A stretch of DNA of 64,000 nucleotides, taken from a virus (lineage: Duplodnaviria; Caudoviricetes). The position numbers were made by a program, and so were the translations under genes. Under the pieces are notes generated by a model that searched no databases, was not told the DNA's origin, and saw only the letters and a program-made list of their open reading frames with translations. This document shows, piece by piece, positions 1-16,049 of the stretch. Each line of letters opens with the position of its first letter. The first letter of the stretch is position 1. Location of the stretch: the IMG/VR virus record IMGVR_UViG_3300044796_000401. One strand, given 5' to 3'.

Positions 1-1503
1 TCTGACCTTCTCAACCAGATCATGGTTAAAATCAAGTCTGACAAGGAAGAGGACATCACCGTGGTGCTGGACATCGTTCACACCGAGAAAGCGGCCTACT
101 TGGTCAACGACCCCAAGGCAGCGGAGGAATGGAACGCCGCTCTTCTCGCTTGCGCCAAGCCCGAAGGGGCGGAAAAAGTATGCTCCCTGAGCGGGGTTTC
201 GGCGGCAACGAGTTCCGACCCCATCGGTCCGGTCAACCTCCCGGCGCTCGGCAAGACATCCCTTTATTCGCGGTTCGGCGAGGTCCCCTGCCTTGAGCGC
301 TACGGTCGATCCGACCGGGATGGGTTCTTGGTTTCCGACGCTAGCATCGCGGAAGCTCGGGACGCCATCCAGTTTCTTGCTACGGGGGACGAACGCAAGA
401 ATCGGACGTATGCCGCGATCGGCAAAGATTCGCTGCTGATCGCCTATCTCGACGAGCGCCCCGAACTGGTTGCGGATTATGTTTCCCCGTTCCGGGACAT
501 CGACGAAGCCGACATCAGCCAGTACGAAGAGCGCTGCTCCAAACTGTTCCAGATGCTCCACGCAAAGAAGGTCAGCGGCCTCGACCATTTGAGCGTCTTG
601 GTGATCGAGAAGGTGAACAAAGGAACCAAGCGGGTCGTTTTGGACGAGCACCTCACGGTCGATGCCATCCGCAAGGCAGTTCAAGACTGGCGCGACGGCT
701 TGACCAATTGCCCGACCGTCGAAACTTTTATTCCGCAGAAAAAGGGAGAGCCCGCCAAGTGTGTCAAGAACGAGCCGTTTTCCCCGACCTGGTTCAGCCG
801 CAGCTTCGGCAAGCCGTGGATTCGGGGCGGGGACGAGAACACCAAGATTCGCGGGCTGTCGATCCCCGAAGCCTATTCGCTTTTCCTGCATGGCGGAACG
901 CGGGCGGCGGAGCAAGCGCACACCCTGCTCCAGCGGTATGTCGGCTTGGTCAAGTCCCTCCTGTACGGTTTCGGGAAGGGTGAACAGGGCTTCAAGGTAA
1001 TGGCTCGGCAGGAAGCGCTTCGGCAGGAAGCGCTTCGGCAAGAGGCGCTTGTTGCGGTGTCGATTTTGGGGTTGTTGCTCTACAAACAGGGACGGTTGAA
1101 GGAGGAATACATGCGGGACATTTATTTTGCGATTGGGCAGGGCTGCAAGGCAGCCGACGGCTTGCACAAGCGGTATTGCGCAGGAGTTCGGGACGGCGAC
1201 GTGCCGTCGCAACTGCTGGGCAACTCCTCGCTGACGGCCATCATCAGGAACCCGGCCAAGGGCCTGAAGATGCTGCTCGGCGACAGCCGCCTGCGGGTCT
1301 ATATGGGCTGGGTGGAGCAGAACGGCGACGGCCTCGGCATCGGGTTCAAGCGCCAGCTTGAAGCCGTAGCCGAAGCGATTTCCGGGCAGGACCTGCCGAA
1401 GCGCTTGACCCCCGAGCAGGAAGCGGAATTGATGCTGGGCTGGCTTGCCCCCCTTCCGAAGCTGGCGAACAGCGGCTCGGACAAGACAGTTGCACAGCAG
1501 TAG
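1..1503 (+). CDS. cas8c: Cas8c (Csd1)-like large subunit of type I-C Cascade; 5' end probably upstream of the window
   Basis: Frame is open from base 1 (SDLLNQIMVK...). C-terminal YFAIGQGCKAADGLHKRYC...VPSQLLGN resembles the Cas8c/Cas11c region. Lies directly upstream of cas7 and a CRISPR array. Confidence 0.75.
   Translation, partial: SDLLNQIMVKIKSDKEEDITVVLDIVHTEKAAYLVNDPKAAEEWNAALLACAKPEGAEKVCSLSGVSAATSSDPIGPVNLPALGKTSLYSRFGEVPCLERYGRSDRDGFLVSDASIAEARDAIQFLATGDERKNRTYAAIGKDSLLIAYLDERPELVADYVSPFRDIDEADISQYEERCSKLFQMLHAKKVSGLDHLSVLVIEKVNKGTKRVVLDEHLTVDAIRKAVQDWRDGLTNCPTVETFIPQKKGEPAKCVKNEPFSPTWFSRSFGKPWIRGGDENTKIRGLSIPEAYSLFLHGGTRAAEQAHTLLQRYVGLVKSLLYGFGKGEQGFKVMARQEALRQEALRQEALVAVSILGLLLYKQGRLKEEYMRDIYFAIGQGCKAADGLHKRYCAGVRDGDVPSQLLGNSSLTAIIRNPAKGLKMLLGDSRLRVYMGWVEQNGDGLGIGFKRQLEAVAEAISGQDLPKRLTPEQEAELMLGWLAPLPKLANSGSDKTVAQQ
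1006..1050 (+). repeat. 15-bp tandem repeat x3 inside cas8c (RQEAL x3)
   Basis: CGGCAGGAAGCGCTT twice, then CGGCAAGAGGCGCTT; in frame. Confidence 0.9.
1111..1503 (+). CDS. cas11: Putative internally translated Cas11c small subunit (130 aa)
   Basis: GGAGG at 1101-1105 and an in-frame ATG at 1111. Internal Cas11 translation from cas8c is established for type I-C. Confidence 0.55.
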   Translation: MRDIYFAIGQGCKAADGLHKRYCAGVRDGDVPSQLLGNSSLTAIIRNPAKGLKMLLGDSRLRVYMGWVEQNGDGLGIGFKRQLEAVAEAISGQDLPKRLTPEQEAELMLGWLAPLPKLANSGSDKTVAQQ

Positions 1504-1507
1504 CGGT

Positions 1508-1565
1508 GTCGCCCGGTGCAATATGGCAAGTGGAAACACTTCCGGCTTCGGGCGTGAATTGAAGA
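1508..1565 (+). other. Repeat-like hairpin between cas8c and cas7
   Basis: GTCGCCCG...CGGGCG stem (1510-1515/1549-1554) followed by TGAATTGAAG, matching the 3' handle of the array repeat. Inner hairpin AAGTG-GAAA-CACTT. Confidence 0.55.
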
Positions 1566-1614
1566 AGGAAGCAAATTTGGGTGGCGACCTACCGCCGATA
1601 CATGAAAGGCTTTT

Positions 1615-2520
1615 GTGAAGAACGCGAAGGAACTGAAAGAACTGAACCGCGCAACCCTGCTGCTCGTGGTTGAGGCGGTGAACTCCGGGATCAACCAAGA
1701 CCCGGACAACGAGAGCGACCCGCGCACCCAGCCGGATGGGCGCGGGCTGTGCACTCCCGTGTCATTCAAGGCGAAGCTCCGCACGCTGGTGGCCGACAAG
1801 GAATTCAACCTCTGGAAGGAACTGTCCAAGAACCTTTCGTTGGCGGACAAGGAATTCGACGTGCTTGAGCGCCGGGACACGGTGCTGAAAGAAATCTTCG
1901 ATATGACGCCGGAAGCGTTCAAGAGCAAGTATTGGGATGCCCGGTTGTTCGGCAACACCGCGCTTGAAGGCAAGGACTCGGGCGGTGAGAAGGCGGAAAA
2001 GGACCGCTTCGTCCGCACCGGGGTCGTGCAGTTCGGGCTGGGCGTCAGCGTTTGCCCGGTGGACATCATCCGCCTGACGACCACTGGCCAGCGCGCCGTG
2101 CAGGCGGGCAAGAGCCGCGCCATGGCTGCGCTGGGATACAGGGTCGTCAAGCACGGGCTGTACGTGATGCCGGGGTATGTCAACCCCGCCGTAGCCTCGA
2201 AGAGCGGCTGCACCGCGACCGACGTGGAACTCATGAAGCGCGTCATTCCCTACGCCTATTCGCACACTACCTCCTATGTCCGCAGCGAAATCAACATCCT
2301 GCACGCATGGTACGTGGAGCACAAGTCGCCCCTCGGGTCGTGCCCCGACTGGAAGATCATCGAGGCCCTCACCCCGAAGCGGATCGGCGACCCGGAGACG
2401 CCGAGCCAGTCCCGCAAGGACTACGAAATCCCTTCCGCGCTGCCGGAAGAACTCCGCAAGCAGGTCAAGTCGGCCGTGGACCTGATGGAGTACATGGCAC
2501 AAGCGACCGACGCGAAGTAA
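1615..2520 (+). CDS. cas7: Cas7 (Csd2) backbone subunit, type I-C
   Basis: NQDPDNESDPRT, TPVSFKAKLR, YWDARLFG, GVVQFGLGVSV, HGLYVMPGYVNP..A.KSG motifs of Csd2/Cas7c. GTG start. Confidence 0.9.
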   Translation: MKNAKELKELNRATLLLVVEAVNSGINQDPDNESDPRTQPDGRGLCTPVSFKAKLRTLVADKEFNLWKELSKNLSLADKEFDVLERRDTVLKEIFDMTPEAFKSKYWDARLFGNTALEGKDSGGEKAEKDRFVRTGVVQFGLGVSVCPVDIIRLTTTGQRAVQAGKSRAMAALGYRVVKHGLYVMPGYVNPAVASKSGCTATDVELMKRVIPYAYSHTTSYVRSEINILHAWYVEHKSPLGSCPDWKIIEALTPKRIGDPETPSQSRKDYEIPSALPEELRKQVKSAVDLMEYMAQATDAK

Positions 2521-2576
2521 GGATGCTCGCAAACGGCGGGGCAGCACGTTTATTTGCATAGACTTGCTGCCCTGGA

Positions 2577-3308
2577 CTTGTCAGGTACTTGAAACTATCT
2601 GTGAATTGAAACATGCAGACAAGGGGCTTGGAAGCCGCGTGGAATATCTTGTCAGGTACTTGAAACTATCTGTGAATTGAAACCAAGTCACTTGCACGGG
2701 CTGCACAAACGGTTCCACCTTGTCAGGTACTTGAAACTATCTGTGAATTGAAACGTGAAAAACCTGCGCTCCCAGCTTCCGATTCCCGCTTGTCAGGTAC
2801 TTGAAACTATCTGTGAATTGAAACCAAGACACAAGGCACAGTGACCGTTCAGTCTTGCTCTTGTCAGGTACTTGAAACTATCTGTGAATTGAAACTGAGC
2901 CCCCATCGGGCGGCGTACCACGGGAAGGCCTTGTCAGGTACTTGAAACTATCTGTGAATTGAAACACGTTCTGCGCCACGTAGGATGCGGCCTTGTCGGC
3001 CTTGTCAGGTACTTGAAACTATCTGTGAATTGAAACATTTCCGTTCCGGGAATTTGCGACATCATGCCTGGCCTTGTCAGGTACTTGAAACTATCTGTGA
3101 ATTGAAACATTACCCGCAATGGGGCGGTGACCCCCGCATCGACTTGTCAGGTGCTTAAGACACCTGTGAATTGAAACATGTTATGCTGGTCTTACAACAG
3201 TTAGCCGCACTGCAAGGTGCGTGAATTGAAACAATCCCGAGGCGAATGGCAGGAAGCGGATCAAAGCGTAATGTTTGTCAGGTGCTTAAAACACCTGTGA
3301 ATTTTAGG
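2577..3308 (+). CRISPR. CRISPR array, 11 repeats / 10 spacers
   Basis: Eight identical 36-bp repeats CTTGTCAGGTACTTGAAACTATCTGTGAATTGAAAC start at 2577, 2648, 2719, 2789, 2860, 2930, 3001 and 3073, with 34-36 nt spacers. Variant repeats at 3143-3177, 3210-3232 (internal deletion) and 3274-3308. Confidence 0.97.
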
Positions 3309-3392: not shown

Positions 3393-3878
3393 ATGCCTTT
3401 TACTTCTCGTCATCTTGGCGAATTTTCTTATTGCCCCCGGCTCTTTTTTCTCGAAGAAATCGAAGGCTTCGATGCGGAGTCCTCCGACACCGAAACAGGG
3501 CATTATGTCCACCAACCCCATGAAGCCAAGGTTCGCGCTCGCCACAACGGTGGCTGTAATCAACCCCATGAAGTAAGAGTTAGATGCGGTCTTCAAAAGG
3601 CCGCAAACGGGCTTCTCGATAGAATACGTGCCTTGCCGCAAACCAAAGAGGCACAACGAAGGATGGGTCTCATCTATGGTCGCAAAAACGTCGAGAGCGG
3701 ACAGATCGCAAGTTTGAGAACACCCGAGCACCAAGCAAAAGCTGGTCGCATCGGCGGTTTTATCAGCCGCCACAACTGCTGGCATGTCAGGGGATTTTCT
3801 CGAATCGGCAAGTGGTATCCACCAAAGCCAAACCCCAAATGCCGCCTCTGTGCAGAATCCGCCAGTAAAAGTCTGTAA
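3393..3878 (+). pseudogene. cas4: Chimera: Cas4 N-terminal fragment fused to a mobile-endonuclease C-terminal tail
   Basis: HLGEFSYCPRLFFLEEIEGFDAESSDTETGHYVH is a Cas4-type N-terminus, but no nuclease core follows. The C-terminus matches tails of ORFs 30648 and 39860. Confidence 0.6.
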
Positions 3879-3894
3879 ATCAACAGTTTGGGAG

Positions 3895-3923
3895 TAGCCA
3901 AAACCCCTCGACCCCTGTATACT
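3895..3923 (+). promoter_or_regulatory. Phage promoter motif TAGCCA-17-TATACT, ATG 6 nt downstream
   Basis: TAGCCAAAACCCCTCGACCCCTGTATACT; the motif recurs about 10 times in intergenic positions. Confidence 0.7.
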
Positions 3924-3929
3924 GTAGGC

Positions 3930-4754
3930 ATGGGACGAAAACCATACATTCCGAAATCCGATCAGGACATCCGCGTCGTCAGGCTGTACAACGACGAGGT
4001 CACGATCACGTACAAAAACGGCCGTCACACCTACTCCGTTGAGGACCCGGCGAACGGCGTCAACGGTCTCGTCCTCAGCGTGACCCAAGTCCTGAACGTG
4101 CTAGACAAACCGGCCCTGGTATCGTGGGCTGTTAATTGCGGGGCGGACTATATCCGCTCCCGCTTCAAGGCGGGCGAGGAACTGTGGCTCACGCAGGAAG
4201 AGATCGACAGGATCGCCGATGGTGTCAAGTCGGCGCACCGCAAGGTCAGCAAGGCGGCTCGCGACATCGGCTCCGAGGCCCACGACTGGATCGCTTCCTG
4301 CATAGCCGCGCAGGCGGAGGGCGGGGATGCCCCCGTGCTTCCCGAGAATCCCGCCGTAAAAAATTGCTGCGTCGCCGCCAAGAACTGGCTCGCCGAAGTC
4401 GGGCTGCGCCCCATCGCAATAGAGGAAATCGTCTACAGCCGCAAGCACAAGTACCTCGGCTGCATGGACGCGGCGGGCGGGCTGGTGGAAATCCGCGGGC
4501 GGAAAGCCGTGATCGATTGGAAATCCTCCAAGGGGTTGTACAATGAGTACCGTTTCCAGCTAGCCGCCTATCGCAACGCGTACGAGGAAATGACCGGGCT
4601 GAGCGGATTCGACCGTTATGTCGTCAGGCTGGGCAAGAACGACGGGTCGTTCGAGCCGTTCTTGCTGCCGGACGAAGATTACGAAGGCGACTTGGCTGCG
4701 TTCCTCGGCTTGATCCCCGTGGCGCGGCGATTGAAGGAGTTGGGGTCGCGATGA
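3930..4754 (+). CDS. Phage PD-(D/E)XK exonuclease (Cas4-like superfamily)
   Basis: SVTQVL..LDKPALVSW, G...H, VIDWKSSK, YRFQLAAY motifs. Confidence 0.75.
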   Translation: MGRKPYIPKSDQDIRVVRLYNDEVTITYKNGRHTYSVEDPANGVNGLVLSVTQVLNVLDKPALVSWAVNCGADYIRSRFKAGEELWLTQEEIDRIADGVKSAHRKVSKAARDIGSEAHDWIASCIAAQAEGGDAPVLPENPAVKNCCVAAKNWLAEVGLRPIAIEEIVYSRKHKYLGCMDAAGGLVEIRGRKAVIDWKSSKGLYNEYRFQLAAYRNAYEEMTGLSGFDRYVVRLGKNDGSFEPFLLPDEDYEGDLAAFLGLIPVARRLKELGSR

Positions 4755-8847: not shown

Positions 8848-9423
8848 ATGAAATACATAGTTGAAGTAAAGGGGATGGAAGGCTCCAGCCTTCTGTTCGG
8901 CAAGCACATCGAGTCCCCGAAACGAGATGGAGAAAACGAAGGAGCCTATGAAGACCGCGTATGGCGGGAACGCCTACACGTCGATTCCGAGGGCTTCGTT
9001 GTTTTCCCGGTCGAGGGTTTCAAGCGCTCGCTTGAAACCGGAGCCAAGGGAAAGAAAACCGGAAACGGCAGGCAGACTCTCACCGACTCGTTCCTCAAGG
9101 CGGTCGTGAGCAACAATGCCTTTGCCCAGATTCTCACCCCTAAGGGCAAGCCGATCAAGGCGGATAGCGTGGAACACCTCTGCTTGTTCGTTCCCAGCAA
9201 GGGCGAACGGAACGGCCCCAAGCGGGTCGCCAAGAACTTCCCGTGCATCCCTGAGTGGAAGGCGGCATTTCCCTTGACCGTGCTTCTCGACGACCTCATC
9301 ACCATGGACGCCATCAAGCGGGTTGTTCCCGATGCTGGGCTGCTTGAGGGCATCGGCTCCATGCGTGCCGGGAACGGCAACAATAACGGACGATACGAAC
9401 TCGTTTCCATCCGCAAGGCGTAA
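8848..9423 (+). CDS. Solo RAMP/Cas7-like RNA-binding protein (Vipr-like effector)
   Basis: VVFPVEGFKRSL resembles the Cas7/Csm3 'IP..SLKG' motif. C-terminal G-rich loop AGLLEGIGSMRAGNGNNNGRY. 191 aa; abuts the repeat array. Confidence 0.75.
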   Translation: MKYIVEVKGMEGSSLLFGKHIESPKRDGENEGAYEDRVWRERLHVDSEGFVVFPVEGFKRSLETGAKGKKTGNGRQTLTDSFLKAVVSNNAFAQILTPKGKPIKADSVEHLCLFVPSKGERNGPKRVAKNFPCIPEWKAAFPLTVLLDDLITMDAIKRVVPDAGLLEGIGSMRAGNGNNNGRYELVSIRKA

Positions 9424-9430
9424 ATCTGAC

Positions 9431-10236
9431 GAGACCAGAAGCAGGGACTTTCGAGCCTCTGCTCCTGCTCTCAAGGCAGGAATCCGATCCGATCTGATGG
9501 GATACGACATGACAAGATGCGACTGGAACCGATATGATGCGACATGCTGAGATTAGAGGCAAGGGGCTTCGGCCCTTTGCTCCTGCTCTCAAAGGCAGGA
9601 CTTAGACCTGACCCGATAAAATACGATGTGATATGACCCGGTGGGACGTGACAAGACCCGACACGTTGAGATTCGAGGCAAGGGGCTTCGGCCTTTTGCT
9701 CCTGCTCTCAAGGCAGGCTGTGATTAGATAAGATATGATGGGACGTGACGGGACGTAACTTGACGCGCCAAGCTGAGATTCGAAGCAAGGGGCTTCGGCC
9801 CTTTGCTCCTGCTCTCAAGGCAGGCTGAGATAAGATGCGACGTAACAGGGTGTGATGTGACGTGATTTGTTAAGACGTGGCGGGACATGGCGAGACCAGA
9901 GGCAAGGGGCTTCGGCCCTTTGCTCCTGCTCTCAAAGCAGGAATCGTTAAGATAAGAATAGATGCGGCGCGATGCGATTCGATTGGATTGGAAGGGATTG
10001 GTTCTGATAGGTTGAGTTCAGAAGCAAGGGGCTTCGGCTCTTTGCTCCTGCTCTCAAAGGCAGGATGCGATTTGATTTGATTCGATTGGATTGGACAGGA
10101 TTGGACACGATGGGACCAGACATGTTGAGACCTGAAGCAAGGGCTTTCGAGCCTTTGCTCCTGCTCTCACGGATGGGATGCGATGTGATGGGACATGACG
10201 TGATGGGACTGGATAAGACGCGCTGAGACGAGACAC
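9431..10236 (+). ncRNA. Array of 7 structured ~50-nt repeats alternating with GAY-NN pentamer tracts (putative gapped guide RNAs)
   Basis: Repeat consensus TGAGA-N3/4-GARGCAAGGGGCTTCGGCCCTTTGCTCCTGCTCTCAA(A)GGCAGG at about 9431, 9548, 9666, 9774, 9892, 10012 and 10125. Intervening tracts parse as 5-mers, e.g. GATCC GATCT GATGG GATAC GACAT GACAA GATGC GACTG. Confidence 0.85.
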
Positions 10237-10243
10237 GAAAAAG

Positions 10244-10267
10244 GAGCCCAGAAATGGGCTCTTTTTT
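10244..10267 (+). terminator. Rho-independent terminator ending the array
   Basis: GAGCCCA-GAAA-TGGGCTC followed by TTTTTT. Confidence 0.85.
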
Positions 10268-10583
10268 GTTTTCCCAGTATTGTATCCCGAAGCGGAGACG
10301 CACAACGACGGATGCAGTGCGTGTCGATCCTCCATCGCCGGGAAGGAAAGATGATAAGCCTGAGATTCAAGTACTTGTTCCTCATCTGCCCCAACGGGTG
10401 CTACGCACGGGAGTTGCGCGCCATCGGCGGTAGGGCGGCATGCGCCAAATGCGGTTATTGGCTGCTCGTGCTCACGATTGACGACCTGCGGAAGAACGGT
10501 CCCCGGAAGGGGAAGATATGGACGAAGGTGAATCCGCTGTGGACCGGGGGAAAGTGCGAATAGCGTTTGCGGGGGACAGGCGC

Positions 10584-15374: not shown

Positions 15375-15548
15375 TTAGGGGTTAATCGGAAATTTCAACG
15401 TAATTAAACGCCACGGGCCTTTTCGGATGAGGTTGCCTTCAAGATCGAATTGTCCGCTTGATTTGCCGCACTTGCAGCTTCTTACCCCCCGGCGTCTTAA
15501 CTTCACAACATCATGGCATTTTAGGCAATTCAACAACTTTATCGGCAT
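15375..15548 (-). CDS. Small Zn-finger protein (57 aa, not in ORF track)
   Basis: MPIKLLNCLKCHDVVKL...SCKCGKSSG. Confidence 0.5.
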   Translation of the reverse strand: MPIKLLNCLKCHDVVKLRRRGVRSCKCGKSSGQFDLEGNLIRKGPWRLITLKFPINP

Positions 15549-15557
15549 AGTTGTATC

Positions 15558-16049
15558 TTAACGCGTGCACCGCGATTGTGGAAGATCGCGAACAATTAGA
15601 TGTTTCTTTTTAAGATACGCGATAGCCTTGTATAAAAGCTCCACGTTATCTTGAAACAAGCCAAGGGCTCGATTATGCGCGTCACATAACAAGCCGCGTA
15701 TCTCGTCCGTCTCATGGTCGTGATCTACGGACAGTCTACGATTCTTTTTGGGAGGACGACCGCAAAGGGCGCAACCTCCTCCTTGCTCTTCGGAAAGTCG
15801 TTGATATAGCGTCTCTGAAATTCCGTGTCTCAAGCGAAGATCGGTTTTTCTTTGTGCCTGTTTTACGGCTTCTGGATGTGTTTTACACCATTGTCTATAG
15901 CGATCATTATCGCACGACTTACAATAAGCACGTAAGTATCCGTTTTTTCTGACGCCGAATTCGGCTATAAGTTTTGGGAGTGTACAAATGGGGCACCGTT
16001 TCGTTTCTATCGGTCGTTTATGACATCGTTTTGTTGGTTGTGCAGTCAT
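15558..16049 (-). CDS. Endonuclease VII-type HNH endonuclease
   Basis: CALCG...LSVDHDHETDEIRGLLCDAHNRALG..DN...KAIAYL. Confidence 0.85.
   Translation of the reverse strand: MTAQPTKRCHKRPIETKRCPICTLPKLIAEFGVRKNGYLRAYCKSCDNDRYRQWCKTHPEAVKQAQRKTDLRLRHGISETLYQRLSEEQGGGCALCGRPPKKNRRLSVDHDHETDEIRGLLCDAHNRALGLFQDNVELLYKAIAYLKKKHLIVRDLPQSRCTR

What the first reader, a model, noticed from the sequence alone, without database searches (positions are those of the whole stretch)
1508..1612. Split CRISPR-like repeat inside the cas operon mRNA
Seen: GTCGCCCG-[33 nt]-CGGGCG-TGAATTGAAG between cas8c and cas7. This looks like a canonical I-C repeat (GTCGC...GCG-TGGATTGAAAC) with an enlarged loop. It is followed by about 45 nt with another small hairpin before the cas7 RBS. 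Inference: a Cas5c cleavage site that decouples cas8c from cas7, or the start of a mini regulatory crRNA (Cre/SRU-like).
Basis: partly seen in the sequence, partly recalled or inferred. Interest (0 to 1): 0.6.

Follow-up and report, generated by a model that had tools for sequence, protein, structure and literature searches.

The report
CRISPR pseudo-repeat ahead of phage cas7
A large phage's type I-C CRISPR operon carries one disguised copy of a CRISPR repeat between cas8c and cas7, most likely a cutting site for the Cas5c enzyme that separates the cas7 message; three other distant phage operons have repeat material in the same gap, and about 85 other operons examined do not.

Summary
At 1508-1565 a 7-bp GC-rich stem (1510-1516/1548-1554) closes exactly in front of TGAATTGAAGA. 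This matches 9 of 11 bases of the crRNA 5' handle of the array that follows cas7. The "33-nt loop" is itself paired, so the whole is a -22.7 kcal/mol hairpin.

The window is a huge-phage type I-C locus (cas8c, cas7, then the array; no cas1/cas2). Its 111-nt cas8c-cas7 gap is the longest among about 85 operons with a measurable gap.

Repeat material fills this gap in three other, very divergent phage I-C operons:
- L339 and L097/L098 each hold one pseudo-repeat with a longer hairpin.
- L088 holds a 9-repeat array.

In all three pseudo-repeats the conserved part is the stem base plus the first 6-9 handle bases, which is what Cas5c reads. The 3' end of the handle is degenerate. No guide target was found in the window, or in the complete L097 and L339 loci.

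Best reading (about 0.5): a Cas5c processing site that cuts the cas-CRISPR co-transcript just ahead of cas7. Rivals are a crRNA-like regulator, an inert relic and a decoy.

Close relatives and the upstream cas3/cas5 region could not be fetched. Earlier scan notes report type I-C solitary repeats on other DNA, but none in this position.

The parts
1..1503 (+). 3' 500 codons of cas8c (5' end lies outside the window)
   Evidence: No Pfam or NCBIfam hit. tblastn aligns residues ~3-487 of 500 to the Cas8c ORFs of 50 type I-C loci at 22-36% identity. The C-terminus is complete.
1510..1554 (+). Pseudo-repeat hairpin. Outer stem CGCCCGG/UCGGGCG, then inner 2-bp, 3-bp and 5-bp helices with a GAAA loop. 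GTCGC, the usual type I-C repeat 5' end, starts at 1508.
   Evidence: dG -22.1 to -22.7 kcal/mol; 3 of 200 and 7 of 1000 shuffles fold as well.
1554..1555 (+). Predicted Cas5c cut, directly 3' of the stem (inferred, not shown)
   Evidence: Same register as in all array repeats, where the stem ends one base before TGAATTGAA. Cleavage rule taken from PMC8524198.
1555..1565 (+). crRNA 5'-handle look-alike TGAATTGAAGA (9 of 11 bases match the array handle)
1566..1614 (+). cas7 leader: 16 unpaired bases (AGGAAGCAAATTTGGG), a weak hairpin at 1582-1597, a Shine-Dalgarno AAAGG at 1605-1609
   Evidence: No target for the 16-35 nt after the handle anywhere in the window.
1615..2520 (+). cas7 (GTG start; an in-frame stop at 1603-1605 blocks any longer reading)
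   Evidence: PF05107 E 5e-42. TIGR02589 scores below its cut-off. Nearest other Cas7 proteins are 57% identical.
2537..2574 (+). Strong hairpin between the cas7 stop and the first repeat
   Evidence: dG -24.4 kcal/mol; z -3.6 to -5.4.
2577..3303 (+). CRISPR array. Eight 36-nt repeats (stem CAGGTA/TATCTG), one CAGGTG/CACCTG variant (3143-3178), one canonical-type repeat GCCGCACTGCAAGGTGCGTGAATTGAAAC (3204-3232) and a degenerate terminal repeat that doubles as a terminator-like site (3273-3303).

Best explanation
The element is a solitary pseudo-repeat derived from a canonical type I-C CRISPR repeat and kept as a substrate for the phage's Cas5c ribonuclease.

Proposed mechanism:
1. cas8c, cas7 and the array lie head to tail with only a 56-nt leader, so they are probably made as one transcript.
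2. Cas5c would cut directly 3' of the long hairpin (after G1554), just as it cuts every array repeat.
3. The cas8c message would then end in a stable hairpin. The cas7 message would begin with a crRNA-type 5' end (5'-OH, UGAAUUGAAGA), 49 nt ahead of its start codon.
4. cas7 would become a discrete RNA, bracketed by this site and the first array repeat.
5. The likely purpose is to free Cas7, which is needed in about seven copies per complex, from the translational coupling to Cas8c seen in ordinary I-C operons, and so tune its dosage.

Shown: the sequence anatomy, its non-random nature, the unusual gap, and recurrence of repeat material in this gap in other phage operons.
Inferred: co-transcription, cleavage, and the effect on expression.
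For: 1. Four different stems in this locus (CAGGTA/TATCTG, CAGGTG/CACCTG, CGCAC/GTGCG, CGCCCGG/TCGGGCG) all end one base before TGAATTGAA. The motif occurs nowhere else in 64 kb.

2. By the published account, Cas5c reads the stem base and the bases just 3' of the cut and tolerates loop changes (PMC8524198). Those are the parts conserved here.

3. The gap is exceptional. In 58 type I-C operons from metagenomes it is -55 to +74 nt, mostly an overlap; here it is +111. Most IMG/VR loci and two GenBank phage scaffolds also have gaps of 40 nt or less.

4. The loci with long gaps hold repeat material.
- L339: 85-nt gap with CTCTGA-[17 nt]-TCAGAG|CGAATGAAAG, against its repeat CTCTGT-TTTTT-ACAGAG|CTAATTGAAAC, including a compensatory pair change. 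The pattern occurs 22 times in the array and once in the gap, and 0 times in 200 shuffles.
- L097/L098: 60-nt gap with a 12-bp hairpin plus U plus TGGATT. This is the only TGGATT on that strand outside the array. The operon has Cas3, Cas5d, Csd1 and Cas7.
- L088: 9 repeats fill the gap and are the only copies in the 123.8-kb record.
- L065: repeats end 27 nt before cas5 and 18 nt before cas3.

5. These operons are very distant from the window (Cas7 25-35% identical, L339 Cas8c 23%), so the shared layout is not simple inheritance of sequence.

6. In L097 the 'guide' position is the cas7 ribosome-binding site and start codon. That fits an mRNA role better than a guide role.
Against: - No RNA data exist; cleavage and co-transcription are inferred.
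- The phage's cas5 lies upstream of the window, so its catalytic residues could not be checked. Al-Shayeb et al. (PMC7162821) note altered Cas5d active-site residues in one phage I-C variant.
- Close relatives (Cas7 at least 90% identical, cluster member P0121 on 24 contigs) could not be fetched. Sequence conservation of this very element is therefore untested.
- The comparative support rests on three or four loci. The L097 handle match is short (6 of 11).
- L339's pseudo-repeat hairpin is weak (-5 kcal/mol, z -0.6).
- A relic of an array that once sat between cas8c and cas7, as in L088, would look similar.
Confidence: 0.5

Rival explanations
1. It is the gene for a crRNA-like regulatory RNA (crlRNA/CreR type). 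Cas5c would release an RNA made of the handle, a roughly 16-nt guide and a 3' hairpin. This RNA would load into Cascade and repress a promoter by partial pairing, for example the phage's own cas3 or cas5 promoter, or a host gene.
For: The anatomy matches the type I-C SRUs described inside cas operons. Those have a pseudo-repeat hairpin cut 3' of the stem, an 11-nt handle, a 16-bp target match and a 3' end in a non-repeat hairpin (bioRxiv 10.1101/2024.12.27.630466). Here the handle is followed by 16 unpaired bases and then a hairpin at 1582-1597. The usual target region, the promoters upstream of cas5/cas3, lies outside the window.
Against: - No target lies in the 64 kb above the shuffled null: best 11 of 14 against null maxima of 10-12; with a TTC PAM, 10 against 8-12.
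- Nothing turned up in GenBank phages.
- The analogous elements of L097 and L339 have no target in their complete loci, upstream regions included.
- The last handle bases, used to define crlRNA SRUs, are the degenerate part: 5 of 7 here, fewer in L339 and L097.
- The RNA would be about 33-38 nt, against the reported 48-50 nt.
- The 3' hairpin is no better than shuffles.
Confidence: 0.17
2. It is an inert relic: the last, decaying repeat of an array that once lay between cas8c and cas7 (the L088 layout), or a scar of recombination between repeats. It would have no present function.
For: L088 shows that an array can occupy this gap. The array in the window is a mosaic of three repeat types, one of them canonical-type (3204-3232), which points to past rearrangement. 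The handle is not perfect and the loop carries an insertion.
Against: Decay should break the stem or its register. Instead the stem is perfect, sits exactly one base before the handle, and the inserted 33 nt add pairs (full hairpin -22.1 kcal/mol against -16.7 when the insert is shuffled, P about 0.05). Three divergent operons each keep exactly one sense-strand unit, with an intact stem base and the start of the handle, just ahead of the cas7 ribosome-binding site.
Confidence: 0.2
3. It is an RNA decoy (a Racr-type solitary repeat unit) aimed at the host's type I-C Cas5c/Cascade, carried along on the phage's cas transcript.
For: Its stem and 5' end (GTCGCCCG...CGGGCG) are closer to bacterial canonical type I-C repeats than to the phage's own array repeats. 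Phage solitary repeats that inhibit type I-C are known (RacrIC1, PMC10651486). Earlier scan notes report I-C repeat mimics ahead of phage genes.
Against: It sits inside the phage's own Cascade operon, whose Cas5c would bind it first. No acr gene lies next to it. The host and its repeat are unknown. The analogues in L339 and L097 mimic their own locus's repeat, not a foreign one.
Confidence: 0.08
4. It is a chance resemblance in a GC-rich spacer.
For: A single 9-mer match on its own is not rare (0.88 expected per window).
Against: The match combines several features: position in a 111-nt cas gap, the sense strand, an exact stem register, a 12-mer shared with the repeat at 3219-3230, and a GTCGC 5' end. 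The layout also recurs elsewhere.
Confidence: 0.03

Closest known systems
Type I-C solitary repeat units (SRUs) that give crRNA-like RNAs inside cas operons (Neisseria Nezha/Gabija/'CRISIS' regulation; bioRxiv 10.1101/2024.12.27.630466)
   Same: A lone repeat-derived hairpin plus 11-nt handle on the sense strand of a type I-C cas operon, expected to be cut by Cas5c 3' of the stem and followed by a non-repeat hairpin.
   Different: Those SRUs lie between cargo genes or cas3 and cas5c, keep the last 7 handle bases, and have a TTC/TTA-flanked 16-bp target in a nearby promoter. This element lies between cas8c and cas7, has a degenerate handle end and a much longer hairpin, and shows no detectable target.
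CreR/CreA mini-arrays and the standalone repeats surveyed by Shmakov et al. (bioRxiv 10.1101/2023.03.03.530964)
   Same: Repeat-like sequence in an unusually long intergenic region of a type I cas locus.
   Different: That survey reports enrichment next to cas3 (I-E, I-D, I-F1) and cas6 (I-B), usually as two-repeat mini-arrays with cas8-promoter targets. In the text held here it does not mention I-C or a cas8-cas7 position.
RNA anti-CRISPRs (Racr; RacrIC1) and viral solitary repeat units (PMC10651486)
   Same: A phage-borne single copy of a type I-C-type repeat embedded in an mRNA.
   Different: Racrs mimic host repeats and sit near acr genes in phages that lack cas genes. This one lies inside the phage's own Cascade operon.
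Ordinary pre-crRNA processing by Cas5c/Cas5d (PMC8524198 and the work it cites)
   Same: Hairpin with the cut at its 3' base; recognition of the stem base and the first bases of the 11-nt handle; loop changes tolerated.
   Different: The 'spacer' that follows is a 0.9-kb protein-coding gene, and the hairpin is 45 nt instead of about 19.

Membership tests
Type I-C CRISPR repeat (Cas5c substrate) | Hairpin whose 3' base directly abuts an 11-nt handle of the ...ATTGAAAC type, on the transcribed strand | tested here: met
   The stem 1510-1516/1548-1554 ends at 1554 and TGAATTGAAGA starts at 1555, in the same register as all array repeats. Bacterial repeats GTCGCCCC..GGGGCGTGAATTGAAAC exist for comparison.
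Type I-C CRISPR repeat (Cas5c substrate) | Cleavage by the cognate Cas5c | not testable with these tools
   This needs an in vitro assay or 5' RACE. The phage cas5 is outside the window and could not be fetched.
Type I-C crlRNA-type SRU (bioRxiv 2024.12.27.630466) | Palindromic pseudo-repeat with the conserved 7 nt at its 3' end | tested here: inconclusive
   The palindrome is present. The last 7 nt are TTGAAGA against TTGAAAC (5 of 7).
Type I-C crlRNA-type SRU (bioRxiv 2024.12.27.630466) | Guide partly complementary (about 16 bp, with 6th positions free) to a promoter, with a TTC/TTA PAM | tested here: not met
   Nothing in the 64-kb window exceeds the shuffled null. The region upstream of cas8c is not visible, so the test is incomplete.
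Type I-C crlRNA-type SRU (bioRxiv 2024.12.27.630466) | Position between cas3 or cargo genes and cas5c | tested here: not met
   The element lies between cas8c and cas7.
Racr / viral SRU decoy (PMC10651486) | Mimics the host's repeat; often lies next to acr genes; the phage lacks the cognate cas genes | tested here: not met
   The phage carries its own cognate Cascade genes and array. The flanking genes are cas8c and cas7. The host is unknown.
CRISPR array proper | Two or more regularly spaced repeats with spacers | tested here: not met
   There is a single unit. The next repeat is 1,022 nt away, beyond cas7.

The most novel reading that the evidence does not exclude
Phage-borne type I-C systems use pseudo-repeats as punctuation in cas mRNAs. 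Cas5c cuts just ahead of cas7 (in L065, ahead of cas5 and cas3). Because the new 5' end mimics a crRNA handle, surplus Cas5c and Cas7 assemble on the cas7 leader and cover its ribosome-binding site. Cas7 synthesis would then be throttled when crRNA is limiting. This would be a translational feedback by crRNA mimicry, distinct from the known promoter-targeting crlRNA circuits. The divergence of the pseudo-repeat from the array repeats would be selected, to prevent repeat-repeat recombination that would delete cas7.
Probability: 0.15. Interest if true: 0.8.

Novelty: new variant of a known kind. Interest (0 to 1): 0.55.

Why it matters
Solitary CRISPR repeats are known as genes for regulatory guides and as phage decoys. 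A repeat kept inside a cas operon to let the crRNA-processing enzyme also mature a cas mRNA would be a third use. It would also explain how compact phage systems set the 7:1 Cas7:Cas8 ratio without separate promoters. Repeat material recurs in the same gap in several unrelated phage type I-C operons, which gives a concrete hypothesis that is cheap to test. It also provides a rule for finding more such sites: a long cas8c-cas7 gap.

Tried and rejected
Routes that failed or were unavailable:
- No whole genome is held for this window.
The contigs that carry the identical Cas7 (7 contigs, longest 241 kb) or its 90%-identity cluster mate P0121 (24 contigs) could not be fetched.
- The metagenome scan returned only relatives at about 50% identity, not the window's own contig.
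- IMG/VR scans with Cas7, with Cas8c and with the repeat pattern found no close relative.
- The GTDB scan for the array repeat found nothing.
- Two 14-mer scans (GGGCGTGAATTGAA in genomes, CTGTGAATTGAAAC in viral contigs) gave mostly single chance hits. The first did supply canonical repeats for comparison.
- blastn against GenBank phages and plasmids found no relative of the locus, and no match for the spacers or the gap above chance.

Negative tests:
- Rfam: no family matched.
- No sigma-70-like promoter or intrinsic terminator lies in the gap.
- Guide-target searches for the pseudo-spacer, for all ten array spacers and for the analogous elements in L097, L339 and L088 stayed at null level.
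- Searches for close relatives of L065 Cas5, L339 Cas7 and L097 Cas7 returned only the same contigs, plus L339 itself.
- No paper describing a repeat between cas8 and cas7, or Cas5c/Cas6 processing of cas mRNA, was found in the held library. That library omits most subscription journals.

Ideas considered and dropped:
- A self-targeting palindromic guide (the CAAATTTG core). The seed positions do not match on the opposite strand.
- A small ORF from ATG 1602 (23 codons). It has no ribosome-binding site.
- A second repeat hidden in the first cas7 codons. The similarity is not convincing.

Full report
**What is there**

The window opens inside a cas8c-like ORF (1-1503). This ORF has no Pfam or NCBIfam hit. 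It aligns over residues ~3-487 of 500 to the Cas8c ORFs of 50 type I-C loci at 22-36% identity.

After a 111-nt non-coding gap comes cas7 (GTG 1615-2520; PF05107, E 5e-42). An in-frame stop at 1603-1605 blocks any longer reading. A CRISPR array begins 56 nt after the cas7 stop (2577-3303).

No cas1 or cas2 follows. Two ORFs downstream carry weak Cas4 fragments. The rest of the window looks like a huge phage: an Acb1/2H-type domain, an intein, a ClpX-like ATPase, a RelA-SpoT/pyrophosphatase protein and a NUDIX protein. The identical Cas7 is on record on contigs up to 241 kb.

Adaptation-less type I-C variants in huge phages are known (PMC7162821). Earlier scan notes say that cas3 and cas5 lie just upstream of the window. 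I could not see them.

**The element**

| Part | Coordinates | Note |
|---|---|---|
| GTCGCCCG | 1508-1515 | usual I-C repeat 5' end |
| CGGGCG | 1549-1554 | 3' arm of the outer stem |
| TGAATTGAAGA | 1555-1565 | handle look-alike |

The array's repeats all end in the 11-nt handle TGAATTGAAAC directly after their stem. The element matches 9 of these 11 bases in the same register. It shares the 12-mer GCGTGAATTGAA with the variant repeat at 3219-3230.

The 33 intervening bases are not a loop. They add 2-bp, 3-bp and 5-bp helices capped by GAAA. This gives a 45-nt hairpin of -22.7 kcal/mol; 3 of 200 shuffles fold as well. Shuffling only the insert gives -16.7 on average, P about 0.05.

TGAATTGAA occurs 11 times in 64 kb, all on the + strand: ten in the array and this one. 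Shuffles give 0.88 per window. Bacterial type I-C repeats such as GTCGCCCC-GCAT-GGGGCGTGAATTGAAAC exist (L175, L130, L171). The element is therefore best described as a canonical I-C repeat with an insertion in its loop. It differs from the phage's own array repeats, whose 5' half is non-canonical.

Within this one locus four different stems close exactly one base before TGAATTGAA: CAGGTA/TATCTG, CAGGTG/CACCTG, CGCAC/GTGCG and CGCCCGG/TCGGGCG. This is the signature expected of substrates of one Cas5c. By the published account, Cas5c reads the stem base and the bases just 3' of the cut and tolerates changes in the loop and the 5' tail (PMC8524198).

**Is the gap unusual?**

Yes.

- In 58 type I-C operons from metagenomes (Cas7 38-54% identical) the cas8c-cas7 distance runs from -55 to +74 nt. 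Most overlap by 4-23 nt. The window's +111 is the longest.
- Most IMG/VR loci have gaps of 40 nt or less.
- Two GenBank phage scaffolds have gaps of 6 and 0 nt.

**The exceptions**

All four long-gap exceptions below hold repeat material. All are on viral contigs, and all are true type I-C by Pfam except the divergent L339.

| Locus | Gap | Content |
|---|---|---|
| L339 (62.5-kb viral contig; Cas7 30%, Cas8c 23% identical to the window's) | 85 nt | AATCTCTGA-[17 nt]-TCAGAG\|CGAATGAAAG, against its repeat AACCTCTGT-TTTTT-ACAGAG\|CTAATTGAAAC. The innermost pair changed T-A to A-T. Pattern CAGAGC-N-AAT-N(0,1)-GAAA: 22 array copies plus this one, none in 200 shuffles. |
| L097/L098 (one phage, two samples with different spacers; Cas3, Cas5d, Csd1, Cas7) | 60 nt | A 12-bp bulged hairpin, one U, then TGGATTaggca. 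This is the only TGGATT on that strand outside the array. It ends 19 nt before the cas7 ATG, so the ribosome-binding site sits where a spacer would. |
| L088 (123.8-kb record) | 522 nt | Nine repeats with periods of 35-66 nt. These are the only copies in the record. |
| L065 (527-kb phage) | none (cas8c and cas7 abut) | A four-repeat mini-array ends 27 nt before cas5, and the main array's last repeat ends 18 nt before cas3. |

One further long gap (L060, 74 nt) is on a 1.8-kb contig with no array and shows no obvious pseudo-repeat.

**What the comparison says**

In the three single pseudo-repeats the conserved part is the stem base plus the first 6-9 handle bases. The 3' end of the handle is degenerate, and each hairpin is longer than the cognate repeat's. 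That is the pattern expected if selection acts on cleavage, not on loading of a guide into Cascade.

Such divergence would also lower the risk that recombination between direct repeats deletes cas7. This last point is my inference.

**Test of the guide reading**

Known type I-C SRUs inside cas operons give 48-50-nt crlRNAs. These have an 11-nt handle, a 16-bp TTC/TTA-flanked match to a nearby promoter and a 3' end in a non-repeat hairpin. The SRUs are recognised by a palindrome plus the conserved last 7 nt (bioRxiv 10.1101/2024.12.27.630466).

The window's element has 16 unpaired bases after the handle and then a weak hairpin at 1582-1597 (z -1.2). However:

- The 16-35 nt after the handle have no match in the window above the shuffled null, with or without a TTC PAM.
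- GenBank phages give nothing.
- The corresponding segments of L097, L339 and L088 have no target in their own loci, although those loci include the whole operon and its upstream region.
- The window's cas3/cas5 promoters are out of reach, so the guide reading is weakened, not excluded.

**Verdict**

Most likely (about 0.5) this is a Cas5c processing site. It would split the cas-CRISPR co-transcript just ahead of cas7, leave a stable hairpin on the cas8c message and give the cas7 message a crRNA-type 5' end. That would uncouple Cas7 dosage from Cas8c.

| Reading | Confidence |
|---|---|
| Cas5c processing site ahead of cas7 | about 0.5 |
| Inert relic of an inter-cas array | about 0.2 |
| crlRNA-type regulator | about 0.17 |
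| Decoy for host type I-C | about 0.08 |
| Chance | about 0.03 |

A more novel version, in which Cascade proteins assemble on this handle-bearing leader to repress cas7 translation, is not excluded.

In the held literature I found repeats between cas3 and cas5c/cas8, and around cas6, but none between cas8 and cas7. I also found no report of Cas5c maturing a cas mRNA. That library is incomplete.

**Limits**

- There are no RNA data.
- The phage Cas5 was not examined.
- The comparative argument rests on few loci.

Noticed in passing
window 3143-3303: The distal end of the array is a mosaic. It holds a CAGGTG/CACCTG repeat variant, a 26-nt spacer, a canonical-type I-C repeat (GCCGCACTGCAAGGTGCGTGAATTGAAAC, 3204-3232), a 40-nt spacer, and a degenerate terminal repeat whose hairpin plus TGAATTTTAG scores as a terminator-like site.
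   Followed up: partly
window 3249-3260 versus 1416-1427 and 1007-1032: The last spacer shares GCAGGAAGCGGA (12 nt) with the 3' end of cas8c, and 11 nt with each copy of a 15-nt tandem repeat in cas8c (1005-1050, encoding RQEAL three times). The blastn-short E-value is about 0.1. The match lies mid-spacer, not in the seed, so it is probably chance.
   Followed up: partly
window 2537-2574: A very stable hairpin (-24.4 kcal/mol, z -3.6 to -5.4) lies between the cas7 stop and the first repeat, inside a leader of only 56 nt. L097 has a comparable long-range stem just before its first repeat. Its role is unknown.
   Followed up: no
window 3393-4754: Two ORFs after the array carry weak, partial Cas4 similarity (NCBIfam TIGR00372 E 5e-5 and 2.5e-3; NF049935 E 7.5e-9). 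This looks like a split or eroded cas4.
   Followed up: partly
L088 5433-5917: A viral type I-C operon (cas5d-csd1-[array]-cas7) has its only array inside the operon. The spacers are irregular and short (about 3-34 nt), unlike spacers acquired by adaptation. This may be a processing or regulatory array.
   Followed up: partly
L065 3230-3471, 8212-8246, 10475-10488: In a 527-kb phage, a 4-repeat mini-array with variant repeats lies directly upstream of cas5. The last repeat of the main array lies 18 nt before cas3. A repeat-like 14-mer follows directly after the cas3 stop.
   Followed up: partly
window 15511-15542, minus strand: A 6-bp hairpin (ACAACT/AGTTGT) is directly followed by TGAATTG, just after the stop of the ORF at 15558-16049 (minus strand). 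With only 7 handle bases matching, it is within the chance rate seen elsewhere.
   Followed up: no
window 8848-10272: A small Cas7-like gene is followed by long tandem units (107-113 nt). Earlier scan notes call this a VIPR system. I did not examine it.
   Followed up: no
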